From assembly GCF_041146345.1 (NCBI RefSeq), contig NW_027191409.1:1859597-1879596 (forward strand): a stretch of DNA of 20,000 nucleotides, read 5' to 3'. This document shows positions 49 to 20,000 of this stretch, in pieces; position 1 is the stretch's first letter, and the number at the start of each line of letters is the position of its first letter. The DNA comes from Neodothiora populina (lineage: Eukaryota). Made by a program: the position numbers and the translations under genes. The notes under the pieces were generated by a model. It did no database searches and had not been told where the DNA came from. It saw only the letters and a program-made list of their open reading frames with translations.

Positions 49-1251
49 TCATGACCTCCCAACAGTCGGTCTCTGCTGCTGCTGCTACTGCAACGTCTTG
101 ATCTCCGACTTGAGATCTCCAAACATGACATCAATCTGCGCCAACAAGCTCCCACGGCCATCATTGGTAATGGAATGATCATTCATCTTACGCCTCATCG
201 CTTCCACCGCCCTCTCGATCTCCTGCGCGATGGCCACGCGAAGCATGCTCAGTGCTGTGGTCCGATTCCGCCCAGTGACATCAAAGTTAGCAACGCGAAC
301 ACAGGCAGCGGCGGCGGCGGAGTTGGAGTCCGGTGTCAGAGAGCGCAGCTGGCCAAGCACGCATTGTACGGTCAGGAAGGCAAGGAGGAAGAGGTTCTCG
401 ACCTGTTGTTCTTCACCCAGAGTGGAGCAGCAGTAGTGGCAGGTCTCGAGTGCTGTCCGTTGTTCGAGGGCTCGGGTCGCATTAGAAAAGATAGTATCGA
501 TGGGTTAGGGTTGTCGCTCGGACACTTCTGGCGTAGGTAATTCTAGCCGGGCGGATGAGGTGCTTCGACTGAGACTGACCAGCAGAGTTCGTAGACGCTG
601 CGCACATCCGCAGGTCAGGAGTCGAGTTTATTGCATGGTGTTCTTGTCGTTGCTATCGAGGCCGCCATTGTCATCTAGACCACCTTCCTGGTGGTCACTT
701 CCAGGAGGTGAGGAGCTTGTTGCCAATCGATGGGCCAAGAGTCCACGTGCTGATTATCAGAGTTGGATGGATGTACAGTGCCAGCAATCAAGTCGACACT
801 TGGTCCCGATAAACAAGTCAGCAAGTCCTCGTCCAAGAAACAGTTCCAGGCTGAGTCACCCGACGACAAATCATCCGTGGGCTCTGGTGGCAACGACACA
901 GACGTAATCTGTTGAATGTCGGGCGCCACAATTTCATGCTGCATCAGAGTCGTCCCCGAGTGGGTGGATGGGTTTTGCTGATTTCCTGGACCCGCGAGGT
1001 CGTCCAAGACGATTTGTCGGTCTGTAGAAACATGAATCGCCGGCGTCGGAGAGGGTACATTTCTCGCATGGCATCTCCCCGGAACGTTTTCTCTTGAGCT
1101 GGTGGCATAGGTCGCAAGCGTTGCGGAGGCCGATTTGTTCCTCGTAGCGTGATGTGGGTGGGGTATTTTTCCGACGCCGCTGCAGGTCAACCAAGGACTT
1201 CCTGGTGTTGGCAGTAGATGTTGTTTGACGATTTCTCAAGTGCGACGCCAT
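49..1251 (-). pseudogene. Zn2Cys6 (GAL4-type) cluster-specific transcription factor, AflR-like, disrupted
   Basis: ATG at 1251. The binuclear cluster reads ACDLCHQLKRKRSGEMPCEKCTLSDAGDSCFY followed by RLGRPRGS, with the third Cys replaced by Arg (CGT, 1084-1086). A frameshift at ~985-960 enters the 675..1190 frame (acidic/Pro linker), and another at ~690 returns. The C-terminal part (TCGCAQRL...PIDTIFSNATRALEQ...CHYCC...LFLLAFLTVQCVL...VRVANFDVTG) resembles AflR-type C-terminal regions. In-frame TAA codons lie at 628-630 and 505-507. A TAG at 85-87 sits inside a CAG run, and the next stop is at 49-51. Confidence 0.85.
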
Positions 1252-2875
1252 TCTGTTACATACGACGAGACAGTTGGGGCCAGTTGATGGCCCTCTTCGT
1301 TAACGCGAATGCAGACTCAACGGGCACGACTTTCGCATATAAATAGACGGCTATCAATGCTTGTGGCCCAACTATTTGCGTACTTCATCATTTTGGTCGA
1401 AGGAAGCGAGTGTCTTTCGACAAGCGTCACAAAGGGGAATTGAAGGATGGGTGGATTGACTGATTGATGGAGGGGTGGATTGATTGATTGACTGATGGAC
1501 GGATAGATGGATGAAATTATTGAATGGACTCAGTGGGTCTACCAACACAAGTGGCTTGCCTTGGGAAAGGAAGATCTACAGTATCTGGCAACTCCGTCCG
1601 AGAAATCGCGCAAAGCTGGGTGAGAAGGTTGTATGCCTGATGGGAGCTGTGATTCGAGCCGTGGCCAGTTGATGCAGGTGTCGTATGACCCTCAATCTAT
1701 CATGTACTCGCTTCTCGCATGATCTCGAGCAGTCTACACAAACTTCGTGTATTCGGAATTCAAGGTACTTCGTGACATCAAGGTGCTAGCATACGTTACC
1801 CAAGTACAAATGCATGAAGTCTGATAAGCATAACAAGAGCGAGACAAGGCAACAGACTGCACGATAGCAGCGATGCCTTGATATAACACGTGATAGCAAG
1901 AGTGTCTAATAGTGAAGATGGACTTTGATGGGCTACTGTAGGTCACGCAACACGTGACTTGACTATAACCGTCGAAATGACTCAGGTAGGTGCCATTTGC
2001 CCCAGACGTCGCTGTCAGAAAAGCTCGGTTGACATGATTAGTGGCTAGCTAGCAAAGCCAAGTGCTCGGCTCACGGTCCGGGTGAATCGGAAGACTCGCA
2101 ATACTGGGGGATGGAATCAATAAGGTTCGCGGCTGCGGCGCGGCTCACCCCCAAGTTCAATTCATGATATAGCACTACACGGTTGGCGTCCTCGATCGTT
2201 GCAGCTACCTTACTGTGTATGTGACAATAACAGGCGACGGATCTCCCGACGCTGCCACACCTCCCATCGAGTATAGATGAAGTAACGCTCTCTCGCTGCG
2301 GATCACTCTGTCATGCACTGCCTGTTCATTACAAGAGTGAGGACAGAGCACAGACTCCAAAACAGCGAGGTACTGTTACCTGAGCCTTAGTGGTCCCAAT
2401 TCGTAAGGTAAGATGGATGATACAAGCAATCATTCTCGCAACAAAAGTCGGTTGGCATCTCATGATCTGAGTCCCCTCGGAGATGCAACACAGCGAGTCG
2501 CTTGGTGCCACACTTTAGGCAGATCTTGGGGGGTCAAATCCGGAGGCATTTATGTGTAAAAAATTGCGAAATCCTCGATTCTATCATTGGCCATTTAAGT
2601 GAAGTAGTTGGATGTCGTGCCTCATATACCGACTTGACAGGTTGATGTAGCACAGGAGGGGACCGTAACTACCTTAAGGTATGCAAAGATGCCTTGGCCC
2701 CGGAAATGACATGTTTCAATCGGTTCCTTCCCTGTTTAGATACACTGCCTGCCTGTTCCTTCCTTCCTTGCTACAGCCTGCCTTATCTTTACGCGTAAGC
2801 CTCTGCGCTCTTGACACCCATAGATGAACTCTTCACTCCTGAACTTTTTCCCACCAATATTCTTCGATACTGGCC
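1252..2875. promoter_or_regulatory. Divergent intergenic/promoter region shared by the Zn2Cys6 TF and the PSST gene
   Basis: The two genes are head-to-head. An AT-rich TATA-like CATATAAATA lies at ~1337-1346, about 85 bp upstream of the TF ATG. A CT-rich tract at ~2745-2790 precedes the PSST ATG. I found no convincing ORF here. Confidence 0.5.
1445..1513 (+). repeat. Degenerate GATG/GATT tetranucleotide low-complexity tract
   Basis: ggatgggtggattgactgattgatggaggggtggattgattgattgactgatggacggatagatggatg, containing two copies of GGGTGGATTGA(C/T)TGATTGA. Confidence 0.7.
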
Positions 2876-3685
2876 ATGGCGACCGCACTATTCTCCCGGC
2901 GTAAGCATGCTTGTTGTTCTTTCAAAGAATCCATACCAGCTGACTGAAAATCTCAAGTCGGCGCTCGTCGTTTGCTGCCGTCTCTGGCCAGCAGGCCTCC
3001 TGCTTCATTGTCACAGTCTCTTTCCATCACACACGTGACCGACGCAAGACGTTATCAAAGTCAGCACGCGAAACCTGCGACTTTCACCCCGGCCTCTAAG
3101 AGTTCGAAGAGTCTCCTTCCCACGAGGACACCTCTACCCTCGCAGTCGCAGCCGGGCAGCGCAGCCGAATATGTTCTGTAAGACAATTAGAGACCTAATG
3201 TAAAGTCGACTTCAGGGGCTGACACGTGCTTAAGAACGACTTTAGATCAAGTCGTCAATTGGGCACGGCAAGGTTCAGCGTGGCCTCTCACTTTTGCTCT
3301 GGCTTGTTGTGGTATCGAGATGATGCATTGCTCCATGCCGCGATACGATCAAGACCGTCTGGGCATCATCTTTCGAGCCTCTCCGCGTCAGGCCGACATC
3401 ATCATCATTGCAGGCACCGTCACTAACAAAATGGCTCCTGCTGTCCGTCTGTGTTATGACCAGATGCCAGACCCCAAGTGGGTCATCAGTATGGGCAGCT
3501 GTGCCAACGGCGGTGGCTACTACCACTACAGTCACAGTGTTCTTCGTGCCGTCGACCGCATCCTGCCCGTCGACATTTACGTTCCCGGCTGCCCACCGAC
3601 CGCGGAGGCGCTGCTTTATGGCATCTTCCAAGTGCAGAAGAAGATGAGGCACGAAAAGGTCACTAGGATGTGGTATCGGAAGTGA
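2876..3685 (+). CDS. NDUFS7: Mitochondrial NADH:ubiquinone oxidoreductase (complex I) PSST / 20-kDa Fe-S subunit (NDUFS7/NuoB/NUKM family), divergent copy, intact, 231 aa
   Basis: Three exons: 2876-2900, 2958-3177 and 3235-3685. Introns are GTAAGC..GCTGAC..AAG and GTAAGA..GCTGAC..AAG. The spliced 696 nt is open. The N-terminus is Arg/Ser/Leu-rich, like a presequence ([21 protein letters not shown]). The core reads [31 protein letters not shown]...RASPRQAD...GTVTNKMAP...[12 protein letters not shown]...[12 protein letters not shown]...RMWYRK. All four N2-cluster cysteines (tandem CC, GSC, PGCPP) are present. Confidence 0.97.
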
Positions 3686-4056: not shown

Positions 4057-7000
4057 TCATGAAGATCTAGCAACTCCCTGCGCCAGCAATTTCGACCTAG
4101 TGGCGACACGCTCAGAAAAGACAGTCATAGGCACACCAGCCATGACATCGAAGACAGCAATGCGCGTCTGGCATTCTCGCAATGACTAGTTGGCCAGCTC
4201 GATGGCCGCCAAGGAATCGACTCCATAGCTATACAGGAAGCGATCAGTGTCGATCTCCTCTGACGATACTGCCAGCATCTTGGACATGCGCATTACGAGG
4301 GCTGATAGAATTGCGGAGGCCGCCTCGGACAGCTTCTGTGCCTTGGCTATGATGACGGACAGCGCTTCCCTCCCAGCACCATCCCTGCTCACGTTCGCTC
4401 CACTTTCGATCTTGTCAGCGCCCACGCGAGCCAAGATTCCGAAGCGGGCGTCCGTCTAGAAGTAATACGGGGGTTCTATGCCTGCCGCGATGGAGCCGGT
4501 CTTTTTCCCCAAACCTGTAGGTAGCTGGAACCTTGTTTGATCGGGCGTCATACAAAGTCTCATCAAACCGAGGAACTCGTGCTCACGGACGCCCCTTACC
4601 TTCTCCCATTCGGCCATGTCGCCCACAGCACCATCCTCAGCCAGACGCCCGACCTCCCGCATGAGACCAAGGTCGATGCTTACTGCATGCTTGCCGCGCG
4701 TGCGACGAGAATGAGCTAATGCGTCTTGGTATCCGCAGCCTGCGACGTAATTGGCCTGACCGCGATTGCCAAAAACACCGCAGAAAGAAGGGAGCATGAC
4801 GAGAAAGTCAGTAGTGTCGAGAAGGAGGTTATCCAAGTTCTTACTGCCCTGAACATTAGGACGTGTCGACTGGATCCAGTCAGTGTACGTCATGTTCTCG
4901 AATAAAACATCACGAAGAACCATGGCGCATTGGAAACAGCCACGGATGGGTCCGTTGAGTTTATGCTCCGCTCGAGCAATGGCATTCTTGAGAGAAGATG
5001 GCAGCGACACATCGGAAGGTATGGCCAGCGCTGCGACGCTCTTCTGACGCAGCTCGACGATGAGTTGCTGGGATTCCATTGACGAATCGCCGGAGCGATT
5101 AAGGAAACACAGCTTGCGTGTCCCGTCGGCAATGAGCATCTTGGCCAGGCAGCGTCCGAGCCCCCCAAACCTCCGACTAGGACGTAGACGCCTGTTTCGT
5201 CAAGCTTCATCGGTGGCGCAGGTCGACGCAGGATCGGCACGACATGCTCTGGTCTCCACTGGAACACGATCTTGCCGCTATGTCTGCTCGATTGCATGAG
5301 CCGCACAGCCTTTTCCATCTCCGGGATGGGATACGTGAGCAATGGAGTCGCTGGCTTGATGATACCTTGCGTGAGAAAAGGCTCGGTGCCTCGGACAATT
5401 TCCGCCATCAGACCCGATTTATCGTCCCAGATGGCTTTGAGATCGAAGAAAGAGAATGTAGCTCCCTGGCGAAACGGACGCATGTCAGACGGGTGTTGTC
5501 CATGATATCTCTCAGACCAAGTTCCACGAAATGACCACCTGCAGCGATGCATTCCCAGCCGCGTCGTATCGACTCCCCGGCGAGGGAATTGAGAATGATA
5601 TCCACGCCTCTTCCTTCCGTCATGCGCTTCACTCCCGGAGCGAAGTCCAGGTCCCGAGTGCTGAAGATATGGTCCTCAGCCACACCATAGATAACTTGTA
5701 CAAGCTTCCGCTTTACCGCGCTACCTACGGTAGTGAAGACCTCCAGTCCCAGATGTCTCGCGATCTGCAGAGCCACTTGTCCGACTCCGCCGGCACCGGC
5801 ATGAATCAGGAAACTTTGGCCTTTTTGAGCCCTAGCCATGTAGACGATACCGTACCAGGCTGTGTAGCTCGTCACTGGTATGCTGGCTCCTTCCTCAAAG
5901 GACATGGTGCATGGCAGCTCGAAGGCATAATTAGCGTTGCCTATGAATAGGATGCTGTGAGCGCCGTTCCCGAGCAGAGCTAGACGCTCTCCCCTTTGAA
6001 TGTGCTTAACGGCACTGCTGATGCGGGTCACGGTTCCTGCCGCTTTTAGACCCAGGGTTTTCGATGGTAGCAAGCCCATAATGGTCATAACTTCGCGAAA
6101 GTCGAGACCTGGAGCTGCAACTGCAATGTCGATCTCATCTGCACCTAGAGGTGCAGCTGCATGGGTCGTAGGTTCGAAGCGAAGTGAGTCGATAAAACCT
6201 GGCTTTCCAACAGCCAGTTCGATAGCCGTTGAAGCGGCGCTGATGGGCAGAAATTCAACGATCGTGGCTTCGTTCGGGTTGGTATTGAGTCGCAACGCTC
6301 CATTGAGGACATTGTCCTCAAGAGCACGACAAATATAGGGAACACCATTGCGAATTTGGAATTCATGATCTGGATGAGGAGTATCGGTCATACCTTCGGT
6401 ATGCTTGCCGCAGAAGATGTCGACGAAAATGGCTGCTGATCGCTCAGGCTGGCTGTCTTTGCTGGATTTATCAATTAGGATGGATAATGGTTGGAGAGCG
6501 AGAAGCTCGTTGTGCAGAGTGCGCAAAGCTCCGATCATCATAGTCGCCGTGGGAGTGCCACCAATCGCCATATCATCTGCTCCTGTCAGCCACGTCAAGT
6601 GAGAGGCTTGGAGCACAATCTGCTTGATTCGGAAAAAGTCTTCTTCGCTGAGCTCATCGAGGAGGGTGTTGTCAAACTCGATAAGAGATATGCAGTGCCT
6701 GTCTTGGATGGCATTGGCTGAGATTTGGCCCCATCCGAGCACATTTGCTGTACAACCTTGTGCATCCAGAGCTTGTACCAGAAAGAACAAAAATTGCTTC
6801 AATCTTAGGCCCTTGCTCTGTGGGCTCAGGACGACGACCTCAGAGGTACTGGAGCGTCTGTTGGTCTGAAATCTGTTCGCTCTCTGAACGTCGAAGATCT
6901 TGACAGCATATTGCCCGTCTTCGCATCGCAGTCTCTCAGTGAGGCGCGAGTTCGCCGAGCAAATTGAGTCAAGCTTGTTGGCAGTCTGTACGGGATCGAT

Positions 7001-10000
7001 GGGACAAACAAACCGAAGTGATTCTCCGTCCAGCGACTCAATCAGTCTGTCGAGCTCGCCCTTAGAATCCTCATCATGGGAAAGGTGAGCCGCCAACAGG
7101 AGGTTGGTTTCGGACTCCTTTACTATCAACAACTGCTCGATGTTGACAATCTCAAAATTCAGCTTCTGCTCACTGAGCTTGTCCAGTGTTTTCAGGACGA
7201 CTTCCTTATCGTTGTCGGAGCAGGCACATTGGTACATTGGTACTTGGTGGTTGCGAACACGCGAGGAGTAAGGTCCAGCTCAGGCAGCATGATACGGTCC
7301 GAGTTTGCCACTTCGCTGATCGTCATGCCTGGATACTCATGGTGCAACAGATCGATGAAATTGAACAATTTAGCCAGCGCAGATCCCGCAGTCTGATTCG
7401 TCTTGCCGGACTCTGCTTCAATTGCGGCCATCGTCTCTCGCGCGTCCAGCAGGCTCACGGCAGGCTTCCATTCAAGTTTCCCGCACACGCTCTTCGGACC
7501 CGCAGCTGAGGCACTATCTTCCACCTCACCAGCTACGCTCGTGTAGCACAGACCCGTGGACCTAATGACGGGGCTGCTTGTGCTTGGAGTCTGCATTACG
7601 ATGTCGGCTTTGAAGTTTTTACCACCATACTCCTGGGCATCGCAGAAGCCCGTGATTTGTTGACCGGCCCACCACGGCACGTCCATGCTGATGATTACGT
7701 CGTCAACGAACTTTGGGGTCCATGCTTTCTTTACGTCCATTGCTGCAAATGCCATGTCTATAACAGCATCGAGGAGGGCAGGATGTACGACGTGTGGTCT
7801 ACCATCGTCCACGGTGCATGAGGGATCATTGAGGCCTACGTCATGGATGTTGACTGAACAGCTACTCTGGCCACCTCCTGGTTGATCTCGTCTTGCGACA
7901 GCACTAATATTCGTATAGGATGGTCCGTAAGTGAGTCTAAGAGATGCGAGGTGGATGTGGAACTCGGTAGCATTGAGCTTGATAGCGCAGAGTCCTCGAG
8001 CTTCGCTGGCGCAGTGCTGCACTGCTACCTTATCGGCTGCAGTCTCTGCGCTTCTATGCTCGCTATCGTAGACGACGACGATAAGACCAAGACAGTTGCG
8101 CTCGAATCTCTGGCCGTCTGGTGAGCTGGAAACGACGAATTCAGTCCAAGTGCTGGTCGTCGCCAAGGTGCCTGTCTGGTGTGGCCTCAACACGATTGAG
8201 AACTCCACGTCCTCGTCATCCTCAATAATCATGGGCGAGACGAATTGAACATGGCGGAGGTGAAAGCCACTTACTTCTCGATCCCCACTATAGATCTGCA
8301 TGACCGCCTCAATGGCCATGGTAATGAATCCGGCAGCGTGGTATATAGTATTCCCTTGGATCTTATGGTCGCCCAACCAAGGCTCATCTCTCATACGCAT
8401 GTGTCCACACCAAGCGTGCTCGCTGGCCATAGGTGACGGAATAGGCGATCCCAACGGACTTAGGTGCGGGAATTGGCGCAGGCGTTGTTCCCTAGCCCAC
8501 CCGGTCTCGGCCCAATACCTTTGGCTGGTTCCATGGGTAGGACGGGAGACCAATCAGAACCCTAGGCTTACGAGATAACAATCGAACTTCCATGGCAATT
8601 GCGTTCACCTGCTCCGCCAAACAGGAGCAGACTGTGCACGCAGGTCTCCCGCCAAGTTAAGAGCAGTCTTGACGCCATCCTCGAAACGCAGGAGAGCGGA
8701 CTGATAGGGTACATCAGTAACACCAATTTCTTTCAAGCTCTGTATCGACGGGCCTTGGAGAGCTGAGTGCGGGCCCACTTCGACCAGGATATCAACTTCG
8801 TTTGAGTGTTCTCGCTCAGCTGCGTTGTCGCGGCTTGGTGGTCGAACGACATTTTGCACTGCGCCAGCGAATCTGACAGGCGAAACAAGATTGCGAACCC
8901 AATGCTCCGGGCCCAAATCGCTTGGCTGGACCTCTGTCCCTGTACAACTCGAATATATGACGCATCCGCTGCAGCTTGGCTGAGTCTGCACATCACTAAT
9001 AGCCTCTAGGTAGTCGGAAGCGACCTCCTTCATGTGGTGCGAATGGTAAGCTGTGTCAACCTGCAATTTCCTCGCGAAGATGCCTTCTTAGCTGATCGCT
9101 TGAGCGAGCTTGTCGATTCCAGTGATATCACCTGATAGAGTCACGCTTGAAGGCGAATTGATGCAAGGATTGTGACTTGCCCTGGAGCTATGAGTTTGAC
9201 GAAATCGTACGCCTTCTCCGGAGATGTTCCTATCACCATCATCGTGCCATGAGTGTTTGATGATAACTCTCTGAGACTGGTCGACAAGATGCCACGATAG
9301 AAAGCTATCTTCCAGGCATCCTTCTTCGTCAAGGCTCCGAGGCAATATGCGGCGGCGATCTCACCACTTGAATGACCCGTCACCGCGGCGGGCTCAATAC
9401 CCACTGTTTGAGGAGATCTACCAAGGCAACTTGCAAGACTGTACAGAGCGTCTGGCCGAACTCGGCGATTCCCAGCTTCGATTGGCCCTTAGGCTTCCGC
9501 AACTCCTCTTCAGCGGACCATTCGCAGCCCAATCCCGACACTAGGTATTCGTCGGCGGCACGTATGCTCGCAGCAAAGGTCGGATATACCATGAGCTCTA
9601 TACCCATACCTCCCCATTGAGCACCCTGACCAGTGAATACAAAGCCAACCCTTGGAGTGCGGGCCGCCGAGAGACATTGTGGCGAGGGTGTATCCTTGTT
9701 CTGCAGAGCCTGCACAAGGCTTGTCATGGATGATGCTATCACGAAGGTCCTCCATTGGTGCAATGACCGTCGTGCGTTCAAAGTGTATGCCAGGTCGACG
9801 ATGTACTCTGTTCCATCGAAGTGCTCACTGCTGATGGTCTTTTTCTGGATCCATTCGGCCAAGCTCTGCTTGACTCGGTCTATGCCATGTTCAACCTGAG
9901 CGGAGAGAGAGAACACCAGGGGCAACGTAGATCTACCATCAACAGCGACGATATCTGTCCCATCGCTTGAGCAGCCGTTTGTATGTGTGGCATTCTGCAA

Positions 10001-11575
10001 GCTCTGTTGCTGCCCATGGCGTGTACTATGGACTCCGTTCAGCTTGCGGGCCTCCAAATATGAAAGCGCATCATCCATCAGGACGTGGGCATTGGTCCCC
10101 GCAAAGCCGAAACCATTAACACTGATACGGCGGAAGCCTTTCTGTTCTGGGAATGGTACCAGTGTAGTGGGTATAGACAACTTCCACTCGTCTAGCGGGA
10201 TCTCTGGTGGAACATTCCTGGCCGTATTCGTACCGGGTATCAGACCGTGCTCTAGGACGAGAACAGCTTCGACCATTGCCGCAAGACCTGCACAAGCCTC
10301 AAGATGTCCGATCTAGAAAGACCCAAGTCAGCATGCTATTCTTTTATGTCGTCTGATGCTTTCGAGACAGAAGTTGGGCGCACATTTGACTTGACCGAAC
10401 CGATCAAGAGCTTTTCGGTCCCGAATTTGCTGGTTGCGATTGTGGTTGAAAGGGCTTTGGTTTCCTCTTGGTCACCTGCTTTAGTTCCGGTGCTTTGAAT
10501 GCAGAAGTCAACGTCAGCTTTGTACCACTGGGACGACGGAGACGGTGCCCACGTGAGCCTCGACATATCCGGTATGCTCAAAGCCTAAGCCGGCCTGATG
10601 ATAAGCATCGCGCACCAAGTCAGCTTGCGCTTTCCAATCTGGCAGAGTCAAACCTTTGGTATGTCCGTCTTGATTACTGGAAGTTCCTCTTATGACCGCT
10701 CTGATGGGGTCTCCGTCCCGGACTGCATCTTCTACTCGTTTGATGACTAATGCTCCAATGCCTTCTCCTCTTCCATACCCATCACCGGATACGTCAAAAG
10801 TTTTGCTTCTCCCGTCCGGTGATAGCAATGATGCATTACTCAGAACTTTGAACATGTCAGGCGAAAGCATTAGGTTGTACCGCCGACGATAGCCATGTCG
10901 CTTTCTCTTGCCCGAATGCTCTGACAGGCGGTGTGCAATGCTACAAGACTACTTGAGCAAGCTGTGTCGAGAGTCAAACAAGGTCCATGGAGGTCCCACA
11001 GCCAAGAAAGTCTACCTGCCATGGTGGCGGCGTGGTTGCCTGCCAATGTGTATGTTGGCATGTTATCAGCATCTTTACGCAGGATGTTGTAGTAGTCGTC
11101 GGTCAGAACACCGATGAAAACGCCCGTCCGCGAGCCTGCGACATGTTTCAAATGACGTCCTGTTTTAGGAAGAAAGCAGACTTAGCCTTGCTAGTGTTAC
11201 TGCGTTTATGTTCAGCAGGGCTCCAGAACGCGTCGGCGTTGAATCGATCTTTTGAAATTTCGCTCCATGCGCCTGAAACTCGTCGTTATTACCATATCTA
11301 CCATCTATATTGAAGCTAGCTGGCTGGACTCGTGGAGATACAACACGGATGGAATTGAAGGAGGGGATGACATACACTCGCCACTGGCTATTGAGTGCCA
11401 GAACTTGTCAATGTTACCGCCATTGCCAGGAAATCGACAGGACATGCCAATGATGGCAATATCACCCGTGTAGAAGTTGTCTTTCCCATTGGAACCATCG
11501 TTATGCCTACCAGTAAACGTTGAGTCTGCCGAAAGTCCGCTCTTGTCCGTTTTTGCTGGATGAGCTTCCGAGATG
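4057..11575 (-). pseudogene. Highly reducing iterative type I PKS (KS-AT-DH-pseudoMT-ER-KR-ACP), disrupted
   Basis: KS: DIAIIGMSCRFPG (~11460), intron 11375-11273, [123 protein letters not shown]. The terminal stop is at 4057-4059. Frame breaks occur at ~11152, ~10873, ~9395, ~9170, ~8610-8530, ~7220, ~5490 and ~5160. In-frame stops occur at 9088, 4456 and 4186. I could not identify the start codon, so the 5' boundary is approximate. Confidence 0.95.
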
Positions 11576-12201
11576 CTCGAATGTCGTTCAAAGATACGTG
11601 GGAGGAACTGAAAGCCTTGCTTGTACCAAGAGATAGTGATGCAAGATAGAATTCCGTAACTTGGTACTATACTTTGGTCCCACGAGCTCGCAGTCTTCCC
11701 GACTGTGCACTGCGCTCTTCGGGAACGAACAACGTTGACCTCGGGATATTGATCGCGGAACATTCTCAGATAAGTGGATCGCTACATCTGTTCCGACGAC
11801 CTGAGTAACCTGTCCCTTGTACACAAATAGGCCGACTCATTGACCTCACGCTTATGTACGTTGATCAGTCTCAAACAGGGAGAGGGTGTGACTCACGTCG
11901 AACGGGAAGAATTTGCAAAAGTGCCGCTGTATGGCTCTACACTTCGGAGGCAGACTTGCTAGCGGCAATTATCGCGCCCTTTTCTTATGGGTGATTACAG
12001 CCCTACCGTAGTATCATCATCCTTTCTCGTGTGTTTGCGTGTTGAGCGAGACCCATGCCAATCGCTGCTGCGGAAAACGATAGCGGCGGAGTAGTCTCAG
12101 CGCTATACTCATCTCGTACTTCTCAAGAGCAGCCACTTTGACTTCTCGAACCAACCGTCTCCGGCAAAGAACCAAGTCGCGTCGCAGCTTCACAATCTAA
12201 C
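11576..12201. promoter_or_regulatory. Short (~0.6 kb) divergent promoter region between the HR-PKS and the NR-PKS
   Basis: The two PKS genes are head-to-head, a layout typical of co-regulated collaborating PKS pairs. The region contains several CGG/CCG triplets but no site I can define. Confidence 0.5.
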
Positions 12202-13545
12202 ATGGCAAACGCCCAAACTCACTTGCTAGTCTTCGGCGACACAGCCACTGATAGATTGTTCATGATCCAGGCGCTGGTTTGCCATTTCAAGTCCTCGCCA
12301 GCCGCGCGTATATTTCTCGAGCAGGCTACAGATAGGTTGAATATTGAGTTCTCACGACTGAGACCGGATGAGCGAGACTGGACGTCCTCGCAATCGCTTT
12401 TAGCGCTGGCTGAGGAAGATGCCAACCCGAGCGTACCTACCAGTGCTTTCATCCCTACACTATGAGCCATAGTTGGTCGTCTTGGTGAGGTTGTTGTGTG
12501 AGTGACTCTTATTTGACTGACAGTGCAAATTTTTGAAAGAAAACTGATTACATAAACATTTTCACCGGCGCACTGAACAAGACCCATCAATTCTGGGATC
12601 CAGTGCAAACCCGACGCATATCCTGGCCTTTTGTTCGGGGCAATTAGCGATCGTCCCGCTTATGGGCGCTCAAGATACAGCGGAGATACTCCCGATCGCT
12701 CTAGAAACTCTGTCCATCTGCGTCCGATACATATCTTTGACGAAGCTGCTGCGTACGAACCTTCTAGCGCCTCATGATACTGGAGCATGTTTCGTTACAT
12801 ATCTTGGCATAAGACCAGAGCGTATGCAGGTCATCCTGGATGAATATCACAAATCGGAGAATGTGTTCCAGTTGCAGAAGATCTCAATTGGTGTTGTTTC
12901 TGAAGGTTGGGTCACTCTGGTAGGGACGCCATCATCTTTCTCTCGCCTTGTGGCATCGTCAACAGAGATCAATAATGCCCATATCCCTACCGACGTGGGT
13001 GGCCCATCGCATACCCAGTATATGCCGATTCCGGATGTTAAAGATATGGTTGGAAGCTCAGCCATTTTAGATCGGACGATCGATTGGTCTAAGTTTATCA
13101 TGTCGGAAGTGTTGCTACATGTCGATACACAACTCTGCGGGACCATTTAGCGAAGTCATACTCAACATCTTAGAGCGCCCTTTACGAATTGACAAAGCCA
13201 CCAAAACATGTATGGATAGTCTTCGGGACCTAACGTCCAAATCTGGAAAGATCTGCCACCTCAAGGTCCACGAGATGGGTAAAAGCCCCCATATGTCTTT
13301 CATTTAGAGAGCTTTGAGCGCTGGCCGCACCAAGTTTACCAAGTTTTGCCGACTCACCCACTTCTGCGATCCGTGCGTTATCGGACCTGGTGGCTGTAGT
13401 GGGTATGGGTGGTCGCTTCCCCGACAATGAGACTACAGATGGTTTCTGGGGAGATCTCATGGCAGGAACATGCCATATCAAAAAGATCCCCAAGTCTCGT
13501 TTCGATGTTGACAGATCTTATCTTAGTGGAGACTTCGATGCGCTC
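12202..13545 (+). pseudogene. Non-reducing PKS remnant: SAT domain plus the first ~45 aa of KS, truncated
   Basis: The SAT start is MANAQTHLLVFGD... The SAT active-site-like AFCSG (GxCxG) lies at 12626-12640. Also present are WVTLVGTPS and GGPSH, and the KS start LVAVVGMGGRFPDNETTDGFWGDLMAG...KIPKSRFDVD. Lesions: TGA at 12463-12465; an intron from GTGAGT at 12498 whose expected acceptor reads CG (12566-12567); frameshifts at ~13110 and ~13330-13370; TAG at 13305-13307. No AT, PT, ACP or TE follows. Confidence 0.9.
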
Positions 13546-13700
13546 CACAACGAGACCGGCCTGCAATTTGATACCGTGTTGCGCAGTAGGTAGGGATGAC
13601 GAAGTATAAGATTACTGAAGTTCTTACGGACGTAAGTCAGGTTTCCTATATTGGCTGCCCCTCTGCAGTCTTGTCAGTATCTCTGTTCCTCTTATAGCCG

Positions 13701-15220
13701 TAGCGCTGGATAGCTATCGATCTTACCTCTACCTTCATTGGTAATGGGCCTGGCTCCGACGAAATCCACCAGTTCCTTGCCGATGTTGTTCAGCTCGGTC
13801 TGGATTTCAAATCTCGGGACAAAATCAAGTCGCGGCATTCTGACGAACCCTCCAATGTCTCGTTTGACTACATGCCTCGTTTGGGTCTCGACACTACTCA
13901 GATGTTAAATGGATTCAGAGAGCTCGCACTTTCAAGCGCAAACTGGAGCTCCCCAAATTTTATGGGGTTCCCAGATGCTGGTAATGCAGCCCCTGCTGTC
14001 GCTGCCGCGCTCTTAATCCTTTTACTGAACCAGAACCTTGCCAATCAAGATATTCGTTCACCTCGCGCAACATTCGTGGAGATGGAAGTGGTACATTGGT
14101 TGCGGCATCAGATCGGATTTACAGTCCCGCCAACATATGCTTCATCAAACCAGATTGGCGGTATCCTTACACTTGGCGGCTGCTTGTCCAACACAATCGC
14201 GATCATGGCAGCTCGTGAACATGTATTTCCTGGCTCTTCACAGAAAAGACTCCCTGCCTTACCAGAGCGAATACGCATCCTTGTCCCTGATATAATCGAA
14301 CATTATTCCATCCGTTCGGCAATGGCATGGCTGAGTCTTGGAGAGCAGAATGTAGTGCGCGTTCCTGTCGACCGACCCTTCAAGATGCGATTATCTGAAT
14401 TGTCTTGCATCATTGATCGAGAAAGAGCCCACGGAAATACGATACTAGCTTGCGTCGGCTATGCTGGCGATTCTAGGTCCATGCGAATAGACGATCTTGA
14501 CGGCATAGCATCCTTGTTGGAGTCAAAAGATGTTTGGTTTCACGTGGATGCCTGCCACGGGAGTCAGCTCGTCTTCTCCCGAACACATCGAGAAAAGCTC
14601 AAGGGTATGGAGAGAGCCGACTCTGTCACGATTGACCCACATAAGGTCCTATGGATCCCTAACACCTGCTCATGTGCTTTGTTTAAACATTCACAATCAT
14701 TGTCCAACATCTTAACGAACTCGGATTTGATTCTCAAGATCAGATGGTCTCTAGGTCAGATCACCCCATTCATTGGATCTAAGGCATTTGATGCACTCAA
14801 GCTCTGGTCCACAATTTCGGCACAGAAAGAATCGAAAGGCTCATCGACAGTCGCTTGAGCCTAATTAGCGACATACAGCAAGCAATTACATGAAGACCAG
14901 ACCTTCTTCTTCTGAATAAAACAGACATCAGCTCCTGCATGTTCGTCTTCATACCAAGCGCATGCCAGAGGAAGAAAGGTGTTGCTGGGGTTGTATTTAC
15001 ATCCGCAGATTGCGAAAAATTCAACGAGGTGAATCAGGGGATCAAAAGTCGAATCCTTAGTGAGGGTGAGCATTACCTGCATGGCTTCGAGCTGAAGTAA
15101 TGCTCCAGTGACTTATTCAGTGACGGGCAGAGAGTCTATGTTCTTCAAGTAATGGACGGTAACCCGCTCACGTTAATCAAGCATGTGGATGCACTAATGA
15201 CAAGCTTGTTACTTATGGTC
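13701..15220 (+). pseudogene. PLP-dependent amino-acid decarboxylase domain (GAD/DDC/diaminobutyrate decarboxylase family)
   Basis: Motifs: SPNFMGFPDAGN, GGILTLGGCLSN, HYSIRSAMAWLSLG, WFHVDACHG (14535-14561), DSVTIDPHK (PLP-binding Lys at 14643-14645) and GSKAFDALKLW. There is a frameshift at ~14815, TGA at 14891-14893 and TAA at 15098-15100. Confidence 0.9.
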
Positions 15221-16632
15221 GGAAGAGTTTCGCGCTGCGGCAGTTCCAAATCCTTGGGCAGCCTGGTCGAGACTTTCACGACTTAGCCGTCTGCCGGAGT
15301 CTCCAACATTGCAGTGAAGATTTTCTCCGCGGATATGAATATGAGGCCATCATCTATGGCTCTAGCTCCTTTCCAGGCAATATGGTCATGTCGGATATGA
15401 ACCTCATGGTTTTTGTAACTGACGACTTCGGCCTGTGCTCCGAAAAGTCGCTCCGCTTTGCCCGATCATTCGAGGACAACATAGTCTCTCACCAAATAGT
15501 TGTCGAGAACGAGGTTCCGCTGGAAAAGAAACTGATCATCCCAATGGGAATGGCGATGAAAGCCTCGACGGGTGTCGGACTGAACCTCTCAAGTGGCAGA
15601 ATTGTCTCCATTTCTAAGACTACGGAGTTCTTGAGATCGAACACGATGCTGCACCGACTGATCTTCAACGCCTTGACAGTACCACACGTTCACTTTTGTG
15701 GAAAGTCCTCCATGGTAGGACGAATCAAGGAGCGAGCATCTCGTGTCCTCGTGATGTTGATTGAGGCGATCGGAACGAATGACAGTCCGATTGACCAATC
15801 ACGAAGATGTCCGATCCCTGGCTCCACAGTCAACTCTGTTTTACGGCAATTTAACCCTGAACTATTTGCACAATCGGCTATCAGTGATGGGTCGCGCACT
15901 GGGGAGGAATATTTAGGATACAAGGATAGACCCGAAGTCGTGCAATATCTGAAGGACATCTTGATTACAGCAAAGCAAAGTCTTGTTCAACAAGAAGTCA
16001 GCACTCTTGGATACCTCTGTAAGCCTAGTGATATAGCTCGGAGGCCTCTCGAATGCGTTGTACTTTTGAATGGATTTCCGGGAGTTGATAAATTATCAAT
16101 CGGCCGGGCTCTCCCTGACATCTTTGGTGCCGAGCATGCGCGTTTCCTCGACAATCATGCTCTTATCGACCCAGTACAGGCTATCTCCCCCGGGAGAGGC
16201 ACCAATCATAAAGATCTCCGTCGTATGTTCCGGGCAGTAGCTTTCAGTGCGTTGGAAGGTCTCGAAGACCCGGGCACAGCCATTATCCTGACTAGCTGTC
16301 TAAGTCCGGATCAAGAAGACTGTGACGTTTTTGATGAGCATGTGCAAATCGCCTATCGCCGCCGGATGCCGATGTACCTTGTCAACATTAGGTGCGATAA
16401 AGAAGAACATGAAAAACGCTTCCACTCGGTCGAGCGGTCTCAGGGTACTAATACCAAGCTTCAAAGTCAGGTTATTCTGGACACCATGCTTCAGCAGCAC
16501 CCTTTGATTCAGCCTACCGAGACCAATGCCACATCGATCTCGGATATCGATCTGTGCGTTATGGAATTCAACTCTACGGGAAGATCCGTTGCTAGTAGCG
16601 CTGCCGAGATCTACCAGATGATCGTGAAGTAA
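15200..16632 (+). CDS. Open frame encoding a nucleotidyltransferase-like domain and a C-terminal P-loop kinase-like domain (3' part of the disrupted fusion gene)
   Basis: IIYGSSSFPGNMVMSDMNLMVFV (15349-15417) matches the hG[GS]x9-13DhDh NTase signature, with N in place of the second Asp. VVLLNGFPGVDKLSIG (~16057-16104) matches Walker A GxxGxGK[ST] with G>D. This is followed by FLDNHALIDPV and IILTSCL...RMPMYLVNIRCD...KRF...R, which is typical of small-molecule kinase folds. Confidence 0.65.
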
Positions 16633-18502
16633 TATATTGTTGATCGTAGTGCTTGGGGCTTTGTACCACCATGACGGAAGTCTAGGTGACCGATGCACTG
16701 CATTATAGATCCAGGTCAAACGAGTCCTGCAGCTGTCTCATAGAAATAGAAGAAGCCTTTGAGGCTGATTTGCAAAGCTTGTTGATCCGCGCCTCTCGAT
16801 CATACGTGCTCTTTAAGTATCGGGGGACCTCATAAGCCACCGCGATGGCAATGATCTGAGCTCCAGGAGGCTCAACTTCGATCGAAGAACCGGTTTGTCC
16901 GGAGATATAATCCCCTTGCTGACCACTGTCGATGCTCTCTTATAGAGAAGGGACATCTTTGTCAGGCCTGAGTAGTCTCACTGCGGAGCGCAATGCTCGT
17001 AGGAAGTCCGAAACTGCTTGATGGAACATGTAAGCAAGAATGTAGAAGAGAATTATGAAATTTGTAGAGCGTTTTACCTGCATCACTGTATATTTCCCTA
17101 CATCAGGCTGCCGAGTCTCGGTGCATAAACCGTAGTGCCCTCAATGAGAAGGCCATTAAGGTTTCCCTTTGGTTTGCCCATGTGCTTGACCGCCCTGCCG
17201 ACATTCTCACCGCTTTCACTTCCAGCAAGAACCGCCTTCGTCTTATTGACCGGGTCCCTGGTGACTGGACCTATCCTTCATGTGGGTTCTCCAACTTTTA
17301 ACAATGTGTCACTTATCTCTAGTACTGTTTCCCAGCAATTCGGGCCCCTATAGACATACCTACTGCACCCGACGTATATGTGGCAGTCCTCCATAGAATT
17401 CAATGTTTCGACGGCTGTGTCTAAGAGGTCTACGCCGTTGCAAGCTTGTTCGCCGCAACTTGTTCGTGGAAGATGCCGTCTTTAGATGTGATAGCTGTCA
17501 CATCTCCTCCTATCTTTACCTTTTGTTGCGAACATACTATTACTTCTCTTTCCTTAACAGCTTCCCTACATATAACGCCATCTTTTCTTTTCGCTGGAGG
17601 CAGCTTCTCTGGTCATCCATGACAGCTCCCTCATCGCCCGTCGGTCATGAATTTACAACATCAATGCTATGATATAGATCGCCAACACCAGAGTCAACAC
17701 AACGCGTACTTCCCTCGCTCATGACGTCTTTCCTCGCTTCACGATAGTCTCGTGGCAAACACGCGACTACATGGTATTCAAATGATAGAGCAGTCGATTC
17801 ATTTGATCTACCAGAAGCTATGGGGGATTACCCTGACTATGTATCTCGCTCCCAACTACGGTGTAGTCCACCAAACCTGTCAGCCCCCTGATATGAACAG
17901 GGTCGCTCCCTCGATCTTCAACACATGGGTAGGGTCCCCTACCCATCGATTTTACGGACATCGGTCATAGAGTCAATTCCCAAAACTGACAAAGACAGCT
18001 AGGTCGGGGTTGACTCCTCTTTCAAGTGATCTACCTTGAAGTCTGCTCTACCAAGTGCTTAGTCGAGGTGGCTCCAACGGGAAGACTAGTGCTAGGGGGT
18101 GTATCGTTGTTGTTGAGTTGTTCAACTCACGATGACGGACTCTAAAGATGATCTGGTGGCTTTTGCATGACTTCTAGTTGGAAAAGCGAGACCAGAAAAA
18201 ACAAGCCCGTGGATTGTGCTAGCGTTGCAGTGTCCGATGAACCGTAGAAGAGAGTAGATTGTTGTCGATAGAGCAAGTCAAGTCCACGGCATATGCTGAT
18301 GCCGAGAGGCGCATACTTAGACATCTGTTTCAAGAATTACGCACAATGGTCAAGCGAGACGATACAGCTCATTTCGAGATGAATAGAAGAAAAGAGCTGT
18401 GCAGTACTCGTGATCTTGTACCTACAGACACAACGCTGCAAATAGGGGTTCCACGCTCTAGATCCGTCAAGACAACCACTAGTTGGTGCGTATGCTGATG
18501 GT

Positions 18503-19402
18503 CTACCAGGCAAGCTCATCACCCTGGTAATCAATCAGTCTTCCACCATGAGTTTCTTTTGTAGCCCCCTCGATCAATGGGACCATGTTGCCACATGATT
18601 CTTCGACCGTCACAGGAGCCTGCTCCATACCAAAAGCACGTGCACCAGTGTTTCCGAGATCAGTCTGGCACCAACCAGGGCTGATGACAAACGCAGTGAG
18701 CTTTTCTTCTTCGTGGTTCATCTTCTTAGTGAGCCAATGTACAGCGATCTTCGACGTCGCGTAAGCCGCGTTTGTGATGGGAAGTTGGTTCTATAGAGTT
18801 CCACGAGGTTAGCCGATGGCTGCTACTAACCGGGGATTAAATGATATCAGAGAAAAGCTTCGAAAGGACTCACCTGGATACACCCAGCGGTCGAGCCGAT
18901 AGTGATCCATTTCGGATCCGCTGATTTGAGCAGAAGAGGCAACGTAGCCTGGAACAGCCACACGGTGCCATAAACGTTAGGCGCCATGTGTCCCTCCAAA
19001 TCTTCAATCTTCAGCTCCGACACCTTTGGCCAAATATATGACACGCCTGCATTAGCGATCACGATATCAAGGTGTTTGATCTCTTCATTTGCGACAAGCT
19101 TATTGACGGCGTCCTGGGCAGAAGTCGCGACTGAAGCATCGGTTTTGACGATTATCAATTTACTACCGACACCTTTGGGCAGGTCGAAGAGAGCTTTCGA
19201 AGTAGGGTGCGTAGGGTCGCGGTTGGCAGCAATCACGGTATAGTTCGGCTTCGCAAGGTACAGCTCGATAAATCCCTTTCCTGTGATCCTAATGTTAGAT
19301 ACAAAACAAAGAAAGCGTGATATCGTGGGGAAGTCTGTCAAATGCCACGCACGTACCTAGACCTCTGTTTGCACCACTAACTAGAACGATCGTTGGAGCC
19401 AT
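18503..19402 (-). CDS. Short-chain dehydrogenase/reductase, norsolorinic acid ketoreductase (Nor-1/AflD)-like, intact, 246 aa
   Basis: Three exons: 19402-19357, 19280-18874 and 18790-18503. Introns are GTACGT..CTAAC..CAG and GTGAGT..CTAAC..TAG. The spliced 741 nt is open. Motifs: VLVSGANRGLGKG (Rossmann), VIANAG, catalytic YATSK, and ISPGWCQTDLG. Confidence 0.95.
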
Positions 19403-19913: not shown

Positions 19914-20000
19914 GGGTTAGGGTTAGGGTTAGGGTTAGGGTTAGGGTTAGGGTTAGGGTTAGGGTTAGGGTTAGGGTTAGGGTTAGGGTTAGGGTTAGGT
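19914..20000 (+). repeat. Telomere, (TTAGGG)n, right chromosome end
   Basis: GGG, then 13 perfect TTAGGG units from 19917, then a final TTAGGT at the window end. The G-rich strand runs 5'->3' toward the end, as expected for a true terminus. Confidence 0.97.

What the first reader, a model, noticed from the sequence alone, without database searches (positions are those of the whole stretch)
3272..3340. PSST substitutions cluster in the quinone/inhibitor-binding helix next to the N2 cysteines
Seen: the segment reads [23 protein letters not shown]. The usual ascomycete sequence, from memory, is close to (G/S)S(L/F)WP(M/V)TFGLACCAVEMMH(L/V)S(T/A)P. In Yarrowia numbering the changes are about G82A, A87G, V88I, 93C and 95M. 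All Fe-S ligands and [17 protein letters not shown] are kept. Established: V88 and M91 line the Q pocket in Yarrowia mutagenesis studies, and H92R confers METI-I acaricide resistance in spider mites. Further changes occur downstream ([22 protein letters not shown]). Inference: this is a reshaped, still functional pocket, as expected for a resistant target. Caveat: an 'ALACCGIE'-type second PSST paralog may be more widespread in filamentous fungi and could have another role.
Basis: partly seen in the sequence, partly recalled or inferred. Interest (0 to 1): 0.75.

Follow-up and report, generated by a model that had tools for sequence, protein, structure and literature searches.

The report
Second fungal complex I PSST isoform
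The altered quinone-pocket residues are real, but they are the inherited signature of a second, apparently undescribed version of a core respiratory subunit found in many filamentous fungi, usually paired with its own transcription factor and here sitting beside a dead polyketide cluster, and it may let fungi tolerate respiratory poisons.

Summary
The motif and Yarrowia numbering are correct (G82A, A87G, V88I, V93C, A95M; also F76A, V79L). The gene is an intact 231-aa second PSST; the genome's housekeeping copy keeps G82, A87 and V88. The changes are not specific to this locus. Of 119 similar paralogs from many filamentous ascomycetes, 118 have M95, 79 have I88, 65 have G87 and 40 have A82. 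A82 occurred only with G87 (41 of 41), which suggests a compensated pair. Inhibitor contacts named in structure papers (W77, T80, M90, M91, F107, R108) and the mite resistance site H92 are unchanged. Elsewhere the paralog sits next to one C2H2/Zn2Cys6 transcription factor family (18 of 20 informative metagenome loci; consecutive tags in 5 named genomes), not next to a PKS. The exceptions are this locus and Exserohilum turcicum, where it adjoins an orthologous HR-PKS. Here that PKS is a pseudogene, and the PSST has four private changes at near-invariant sites. Best reading: a regulated, probably inhibitor-tolerant PSST isoform recruited into a polyketide cluster. Resistance is untested. Two look-ups found no earlier scan note of this on other DNA.

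The parts
2876..3685 (+). Intact second PSST/NDUFS7 gene ('SMP-type' paralog); exons 2876-2900, 2958-3177, 3235-3685; 231 aa with predicted mitochondrial presequence
   Evidence: intron 3178-3234 skipped in one contig of run X2
3272..3340 (+). N2-ligand loop and Q-pocket helix. Changed codons: 76 (3278), 79 (3287), 82 (3296), 87 (3311), 88 (3314), 93 (3329), 95 (3335). Unchanged: W77, T80, C85, C86, M90, M91, H92
3368..3376 (+). I106-F107-R108, Q-tunnel residues, unchanged
   Evidence: roles from PMC9503403 and PMC7567858
3401..3634 (+). Four private substitutions at near-invariant columns: 117 (3401), 161 (3533), 166 (3548), 194 (3632)
   Evidence: 0 of 127 other rows share them; 109 of 128 rows have no such change and only 2 of 128 have four
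4060..11496 (-). HR-PKS pseudogene (KS-AT-DH-ER-KR-ACP, no C-methyltransferase domain found), tail-to-tail with the PSST gene; three in-frame stops and six frame changes without room for an intron
   Evidence: orthologue E. turcicum SETTUDRAFT_30113, 64-75% identical over the long blocks
12142..13593 (+). NR-PKS remnant (SAT and start of KS only), divergent from the HR-PKS
   Evidence: relatives are SAT-KS-AT-PT-ACP(-TE) proteins
675..1299 (-). Short Zn2Cys6 gene or remnant, head-to-head with the PSST gene; not a member of the TF family that partners this paralog in other fungi
   Evidence: PF00172 E 5e-4, just under cut-off; no match to two TF-family profiles
19914..20000 (+). Telomeric TTAGGG array; the locus is subtelomeric

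Best explanation
The segment is the Q-pocket of a second PSST isoform that many filamentous ascomycetes keep beside the housekeeping gene. Shown: family membership; pairing with one C2H2/Zn2Cys6 transcription factor family in most genomes examined; strict co-occurrence of A82 with G87; an intact, conserved gene; adjacency to an orthologous HR-PKS here and in E. turcicum. Inferred: the partner factor switches the isoform on when complex I is challenged. The isoform is then imported and replaces the standard PSST beside the single 49-kDa subunit. Its second-shell changes (A95M, V88I and, in some lineages, the compensated G82A/A87G pair) repack the wall around the conserved M90/M91/T80 contacts so that ubiquinone still turns over while Q-site inhibitors bind more weakly. 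One lineage of this isoform was captured by an HR-PKS/NR-PKS cluster, plausibly as ready-made self-protection. In this genome the cluster has died, the partner factor was not found, and the PSST copy shows early signs of relaxed constraint.
For: 113 of the best 120 homologues are paralog-type and come from several ascomycete classes. Housekeeping and paralog rows split at 100/99 support. M95 118/119, V123 112/119 and V167 116/119 are family traits. The TF family is adjacent in 18 of 20 metagenome loci with at least 1 kb upstream, 16 of them head-to-head. Tags are consecutive in Viridothelium virens, Trypethelium eluteriae, Monosporascus sp., Zasmidium cellare and Pyricularia grisea. E. turcicum PSST 30114 follows HR-PKS 30113. 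The window's subclade has 99/94 support, and grouping its Exserohilum and Westerdykella members with the usual Pleosporales paralog is rejected (p-AU 0.0003). Only one 49-kDa gene was found. Positions 87 and 88 lie at the redox site (PMC10130173, PMC8861642), and M91 variants next door resist rotenone and DQA (PMC7567858).
Against: No inhibitor, expression or assembly data. All named direct contacts and H92 are unchanged. The A82/G87/I88 trio is also found in at least 120 bacterial NuoB genes, mostly Bacteroidota, so it need not mean resistance. The closest relatives (93%, Viridothelium and Trypethelium) sit beside the TF rather than a PKS, on short contigs (5.8 and 9.4 kb). In a third E. turcicum assembly the PKS and PSST accessions are 114 apart (KAL6159156, KAL6159270). 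PKS linkage therefore rests on two lineages. The homologue list is ranked by likeness to the window, which inflates shared-residue counts, and the housekeeping sample is small (8 rows plus 3 fungal PDB sequences). Many metagenome loci are near-redundant. The AU group was named after a first tree had been seen.
Confidence: 0.55

Rival explanations
1. The isoform is a physiological variant, tuned to another quinone, redox state or low-oxygen condition, and its own factor responds to that condition rather than to a poison.
For: A dedicated factor is conserved across classes with no biosynthetic genes nearby (0 of 35 loci match the window's PKS). The same A82/G87/I88 trio occurs in Bacteroidota NuoB, which use menaquinone (recalled). 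Direct inhibitor contacts are unchanged.
Against: It does not explain capture into a polyketide cluster shared by two distant fungi. The 49-kDa subunit, the other half of the pocket, is single-copy. The pocket positions vary widely within the family (27 residue combinations), as expected from diverse ligands.
Confidence: 0.2
2. One reading: the pocket was reshaped at this cluster to resist the cluster's own polyketide.
For: All five named residues occur together in only 8 of 128 rows, all in the window's subclade, which includes the PKS-linked E. turcicum copy. That subclade is discordant with the usual Pleosporales paralog.
Against: The same five residues are in Viridothelium and Trypethelium copies that sit beside the TF. 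Four of the five (A82, G87, I88, M95) occur in 38 of 128 rows. The changes therefore predate, or are independent of, the PKS link.
Confidence: 0.12
3. The substitutions are functionally neutral, compensated drift in a redundant duplicate kept for dosage, and the PKS adjacency is incidental.
For: A82 occurs only with G87 (41 of 41; 0 of 62 with A87 or S87), consistent with a volume-neutral swap. I88 occurs in 2 of 8 housekeeping rows. The window copy has four private changes at near-invariant sites.
Against: M95, V123 and V167 are nearly fixed across the family while absent from housekeeping rows. dN/dS is about 0.05-0.06 where measurable (2 of 10 pairs; the others are saturated). A conserved dedicated factor is hard to explain for a redundant copy.
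Confidence: 0.13

Closest known systems
Mitochondrial complex I PSST/NDUFS7 (Yarrowia NUKM, 6gcs_K; PF01058)
   Same: N2 ligands, Q-contact residues W77, T80, M90, M91, I106, F107, R108 and the eukaryotic C-terminus
   Different: A second copy with G82A, A87G, V88I, V93C, A95M and further family changes; separate clade; own neighbouring regulator
Target-duplication self-resistance genes in fungal clusters (fellutamide proteasome subunit and aspterric acid AstD, as described in PMC10320164 passages; atpenin SdhC and citreoviridin ATP synthase beta copy, recalled)
   Same: An extra, diverged copy of an essential target next to a PKS, with the housekeeping copy elsewhere
   Different: The diverged copy belongs to a family that mostly lives outside clusters. 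No product or resistance is shown, and the cluster here is a pseudogene. Term searches for NADH, ubiquinone and complex I found no complex I example in the main text of four resistance-mining papers.
Dispensable or inducible respiratory and sterol target paralogs that give fungi intrinsic fungicide tolerance (SdhC paralogs of Zymoseptoria and Fusarium, recalled; CYP51 paralogs, PMC8546618 seen as a search listing only)
   Same: A patchily kept second copy of a drug-target subunit with changes around the binding pocket
   Different: This one concerns complex I and is physically coupled to its own C2H2/Zn2Cys6 factor; tolerance is untested
PSST H92R METI-I resistance in Tetranychus urticae (PMC12344295 passages) and Yarrowia M91 variants (PMC7567858 passages)
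   Same: The same helix, within 1-4 residues of the changes
   Different: H92 and M91 are unchanged in the window copy (H92Q occurs in 12 of 119 paralogs)
HR-PKS/NR-PKS pairs for benzenediol lactones and isocoumarins (zearalenone or cladosporin type, recalled)
   Same: A divergent HR-PKS without C-methyltransferase domain plus a SAT-KS-AT-PT-ACP(-TE) partner
   Different: Both genes are broken here; the product of the E. turcicum orthologue is unknown (monocerin is only a guess)

Membership tests
PSST/NDUFS7 | Four N2 cysteines including the tandem CC | tested here: met
   C85, C86, C150, C180
PSST/NDUFS7 | Full-length homology to solved PSST chains and an intact gene with presequence | tested here: met
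   E 3e-85 to 6gcs_K; 231 aa, no internal stop
PSST/NDUFS7 | Assembles into active complex I | not testable with these tools
   Needs biochemistry; the single-sequence model was too poor to use (pLDDT 49)
Widespread SMP-type PSST paralog | M95, L79, V123, V167 and placement outside the housekeeping clade | tested here: met
Widespread SMP-type PSST paralog | Adjacent C2H2/Zn2Cys6 partner factor | tested here: not met
   No profile match in the window; best genome matches only 28-29% over part of the protein; the genome search scores only its best candidates
Cluster self-resistance gene | Extra copy with the housekeeping gene elsewhere | tested here: met
Cluster self-resistance gene | Linkage to the same core enzyme in other genomes | tested here: inconclusive
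   Met in E. turcicum (consecutive in 2 of 3 assemblies); not in the two closest relatives or in 35 metagenome loci
Cluster self-resistance gene | Changes at the ligand site | tested here: inconclusive
   87 and 88 are at the redox site; the main named contacts are unchanged; no coordinates were available to place 82, 93 and 95
Cluster self-resistance gene | Cluster makes an inhibitor of the target and the copy resists it | not testable with these tools
   PKS genes are broken here; product of the intact orthologue unknown

The most novel reading that the evidence does not exclude
Filamentous ascomycetes carry an undescribed two-gene sensor-and-swap module: a ligand-sensing zinc-finger factor and an alternative catalytic PSST subunit that rebuilds the quinone pocket of complex I on demand against natural Q-site poisons. 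One lineage of that subunit was co-opted as the self-resistance gene of an HR/NR-PKS cluster, which would point to a fungal polyketide complex I inhibitor in Exserohilum turcicum.
Probability: 0.4. Interest if true: 0.82.

Novelty: new variant of a known kind. Interest (0 to 1): 0.6.

Why it matters
PSST is normally treated as a single-copy, nearly invariant core subunit. A regulated alternative across many filamentous fungi would mean that complex I can be rebuilt at its catalytic pocket. That could explain intrinsic tolerance to complex I inhibitors and gives a natural library of functional pocket variants (27 residue combinations seen) for studying quinone and inhibitor binding. It also warns resistance-gene mining: a diverged PSST near a cluster is often this family, so linkage must be shown case by case. 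The E. turcicum cluster is one case where it holds and is a concrete lead for a fungal complex I inhibitor.

Tried and rejected
1) A pocket private to this locus: rejected. 2) The window's Zn2Cys6 remnant as the family's partner factor: no match. 3) Cluster extending upstream: 40 kb upstream (L003-L006) showed no PKS-like long ORF by eye; not scanned with Pfam. 4) Structure prediction without alignment gave pLDDT 49 and no coordinates; not used. No fold or complex job was sent. 5) The first careful tree and first AU test did not finish. One search gave the quick tree; the careful tree and AU test come from 36 of 128 rows under LG+G4 without mixture, rooted on housekeeping rows only, with no yeast or animal outgroup. 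6) dN/dS was saturated in 8 of 10 pairs. 7) Sequencing runs: no RNA holder listed. X3 held 6% of words with scattered short pieces and is not used. Contig depth is not used to rank expression. X1 matches the broken PKS without differences but may be the source of the assembly. 8) One search used exon coordinates shifted by two bases; corrected. 9) Monocerin as the E. turcicum product: PMC7099616 (2020, passages) says its cluster was not identified and PMC9999372 (passages) names none; left as a guess. 10) Paper searches found no description of a second fungal PSST or its partner factor; one search returned nothing, so the V88 mutagenesis claim stays recalled. The library lacks most subscription journals. 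Supplements of the resistance-mining papers (PMC6517689, PMC12616698, PMC10320164) were not read and could list this gene family. 11) Earlier scan notes: bacterial and phage NuoB notes not relevant; one title on this same window.

Full report
Observation. The window is the subtelomeric end of contig C7 of a 24-Mb fungal genome. Alignment to the Yarrowia chain 6gcs_K confirms G82A, A87G, V88I, V93C and A95M and adds F76A and V79L. The gene is intact: three exons (2876-2900, 2958-3177, 3235-3685), canonical introns, 231 aa, four N2 cysteines. One low-depth contig of run X2, whose type is not on record, skips the second intron exactly, a weak hint of transcription. The genome has exactly one other PSST match, a housekeeping type at C7:1032627-1033073 (81% identical, G82/A87/V88/L93/T95), and one 49-kDa subunit gene.

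The residues belong to a family. Of the best 120 of 8000 scored homologues, 113 are of a second type and 7 are housekeeping type. Named sources include Aspergillus, Talaromyces, Colletotrichum, Pyricularia, Metarhizium, Xylariales, Pleosporales, Cladosporium, Aureobasidium and Lachnellula. With six cluster members added the set is 128 rows: the window, 8 housekeeping and 119 paralogs. Among the 119, M95 occurs in 118, L79 in 116, V167 in 116, V123 in 112, I88 in 79, G87 in 65, A82 in 40 and C93 in 18. Among the 8 housekeeping rows only I88 (2) and L79 (1) appear. The list is ranked by likeness to the window, so these shares are upper-biased. All five named residues together occur in 8 of 128 rows, and A82+G87+I88+M95 in 38. 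A careful tree of 36 of the 128 rows separates housekeeping from paralogs at 100/99 and places the window with Viridothelium, Westerdykella, Exserohilum and three unnamed proteins at 99/94. Forcing the Exserohilum and Westerdykella copies into the usual Pleosporales paralog group is rejected (p-AU 0.0003; group named after a first tree; no outside outgroup).

What the changes are structurally. I had no coordinates, so this rests on papers. I read parts 1-3 of 5 of PMC9503403 and term-search passages of PMC7567858, PMC10130173 and PMC8861642. They name mouse NDUFS7 W56, T59, M70, F86 and R87, bovine and ovine M59/M60, and Yarrowia M91, I106 and R108 as Q or inhibitor contacts. These are Yarrowia 77, 80, 90, 91, 106, 107 and 108, and all are unchanged here. 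So is H92, the mite resistance site (PMC12344295, passages). Two changed positions are placed at the site: mouse Ala66 (87), listed among differences behind the low rotenone sensitivity of E. coli, and Val67 (88), facing the acetogenin head group. I found no statement for 82, 93 or 95. A82 occurs only together with G87 (41 of 41 rows; 0 of 62 rows with A87 or S87), with at least 7 state changes at 82 on the quick tree. That suggests a compensated swap rather than two independent resistance changes.

Usual neighbourhood. A pattern scan of metagenomes gave 35 paralog loci. All-against-all BLAST found one gene family next to the paralog in 18 of 35 loci. It has C2H2, Zn2Cys6 and Fungal_trans domains. 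Of the 20 loci with at least 1 kb upstream, 18 have it: 16 head-to-head, 1 upstream on the same strand and 1 downstream. L008 has a weak match and L029 a different factor (that profile was partly built from these loci, and several loci are near-redundant). Consecutive tags or accessions confirm the pair in Viridothelium virens, Trypethelium eluteriae, Monosporascus sp. CRB-9-2, Zasmidium cellare and Pyricularia grisea, and six more genomes show equal contig lengths for both genes. No PKS or NRPS domain was found in 124 of 295 flank ORFs scanned, and none of the 35 loci matched the window's PKS; only 14 loci reach 10 kb.

This locus. Here the paralog is tail-to-tail with an HR-PKS (4060-11496), followed by an NR-PKS remnant (12142-13593) and preceded by an unrelated short Zn2Cys6 gene. 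The partner factor was not found in the genome. The best named PKS relative is E. turcicum SETTUDRAFT_30113, and its neighbour 30114 is the 90%-identical PSST paralog. The accessions are consecutive in two assemblies and 114 apart in a third. PMC3554632 (passages) lists 30113 only as a species-specific PKS. The window's HR-PKS has three in-frame stops (near 9090, 4458, 4188) and six frame changes without intron room (near 10875, 9395, 9166, 7234, 5480, 5165), and the NR-PKS ends early in KS, so the cluster is dead. The PSST copy has been under purifying selection (dN 0.032, dS 0.69 against L038), but it carries four private changes at columns at least 95% conserved (117, 161, 166, 194). 109 of 128 rows have none and one other row has four.

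Mechanism. Most likely (0.55): a regulated, inhibitor-tolerant PSST isoform, switched on by its adjacent factor and swapped into complex I, one lineage of which was captured by a polyketide cluster as ready-made protection. Family, pairing, linkage, compensation and decay are shown; induction, assembly and tolerance are inferred. Rivals: a physiological isoform for another quinone or redox state (0.2), neutral compensated drift (0.13), and cluster-specific tailoring as first proposed (0.12).

Novelty. It works like target-duplication resistance (PMC10320164 passages; other examples recalled) but is not shown to be a self-resistance gene. Ten paper searches and term searches in PMC6517689, PMC13515044, PMC12616698, PMC10320164 and PMC12135012 found no account of a second fungal PSST or its factor. 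Subscription papers and supplements were not seen. The finding as first framed is overstated, but it leads to a widespread, testable two-gene module. Interest 0.6.

Noticed in passing
window 13704-15100 (+): A PLP-dependent decarboxylase (PF00282, E 6e-39) begins about 110 bases after the NR-PKS breaks off and is itself interrupted by a stop near 14856; it looks like a cassette that replaced the rest of the NR-PKS.
   Followed up: no
window 15163-16632 (+): A 489-aa open frame with only a weak C-terminal AAA_18/P-loop match (E 0.002) and an unassigned N-terminal half.
   Followed up: no
window 18500-19356 (-): Short-chain dehydrogenase gene about 600 bases from the telomere.
   Followed up: no
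P0125 (Colletotrichum truncatum), P0088/P0120/P0122 (Aspergillus section Flavi): Some genera hold more than one paralog type; a Colletotrichum record is named 'subunit, mitochondrial 3', and 12 of 119 paralogs have Q at the mite resistance position 92.
   Followed up: partly
L016:2-1172, L024:2267-3319, L031:378-1430: A pyridine nucleotide-disulphide oxidoreductase gene lies downstream of the paralog in three loci of one sequence type.
   Followed up: no
L016:6046-7671, L040:1911-3707, L008:8396-9499, L029:2643-3440: A second, different zinc-cluster factor flanks the paralog in four loci, alone or together with the family factor.
   Followed up: no
P0384 (unnamed, 1908 aa): An intact NR-PKS 83% identical to part of the window's SAT remnant exists on a 23-kb contig, so an intact version of this cluster probably survives in a close relative.
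   Followed up: partly
L003:7409-8755 (+): A secreted-looking protein with about five tandem cysteine-containing repeats of about 30 aa, just upstream of the window.
   Followed up: no
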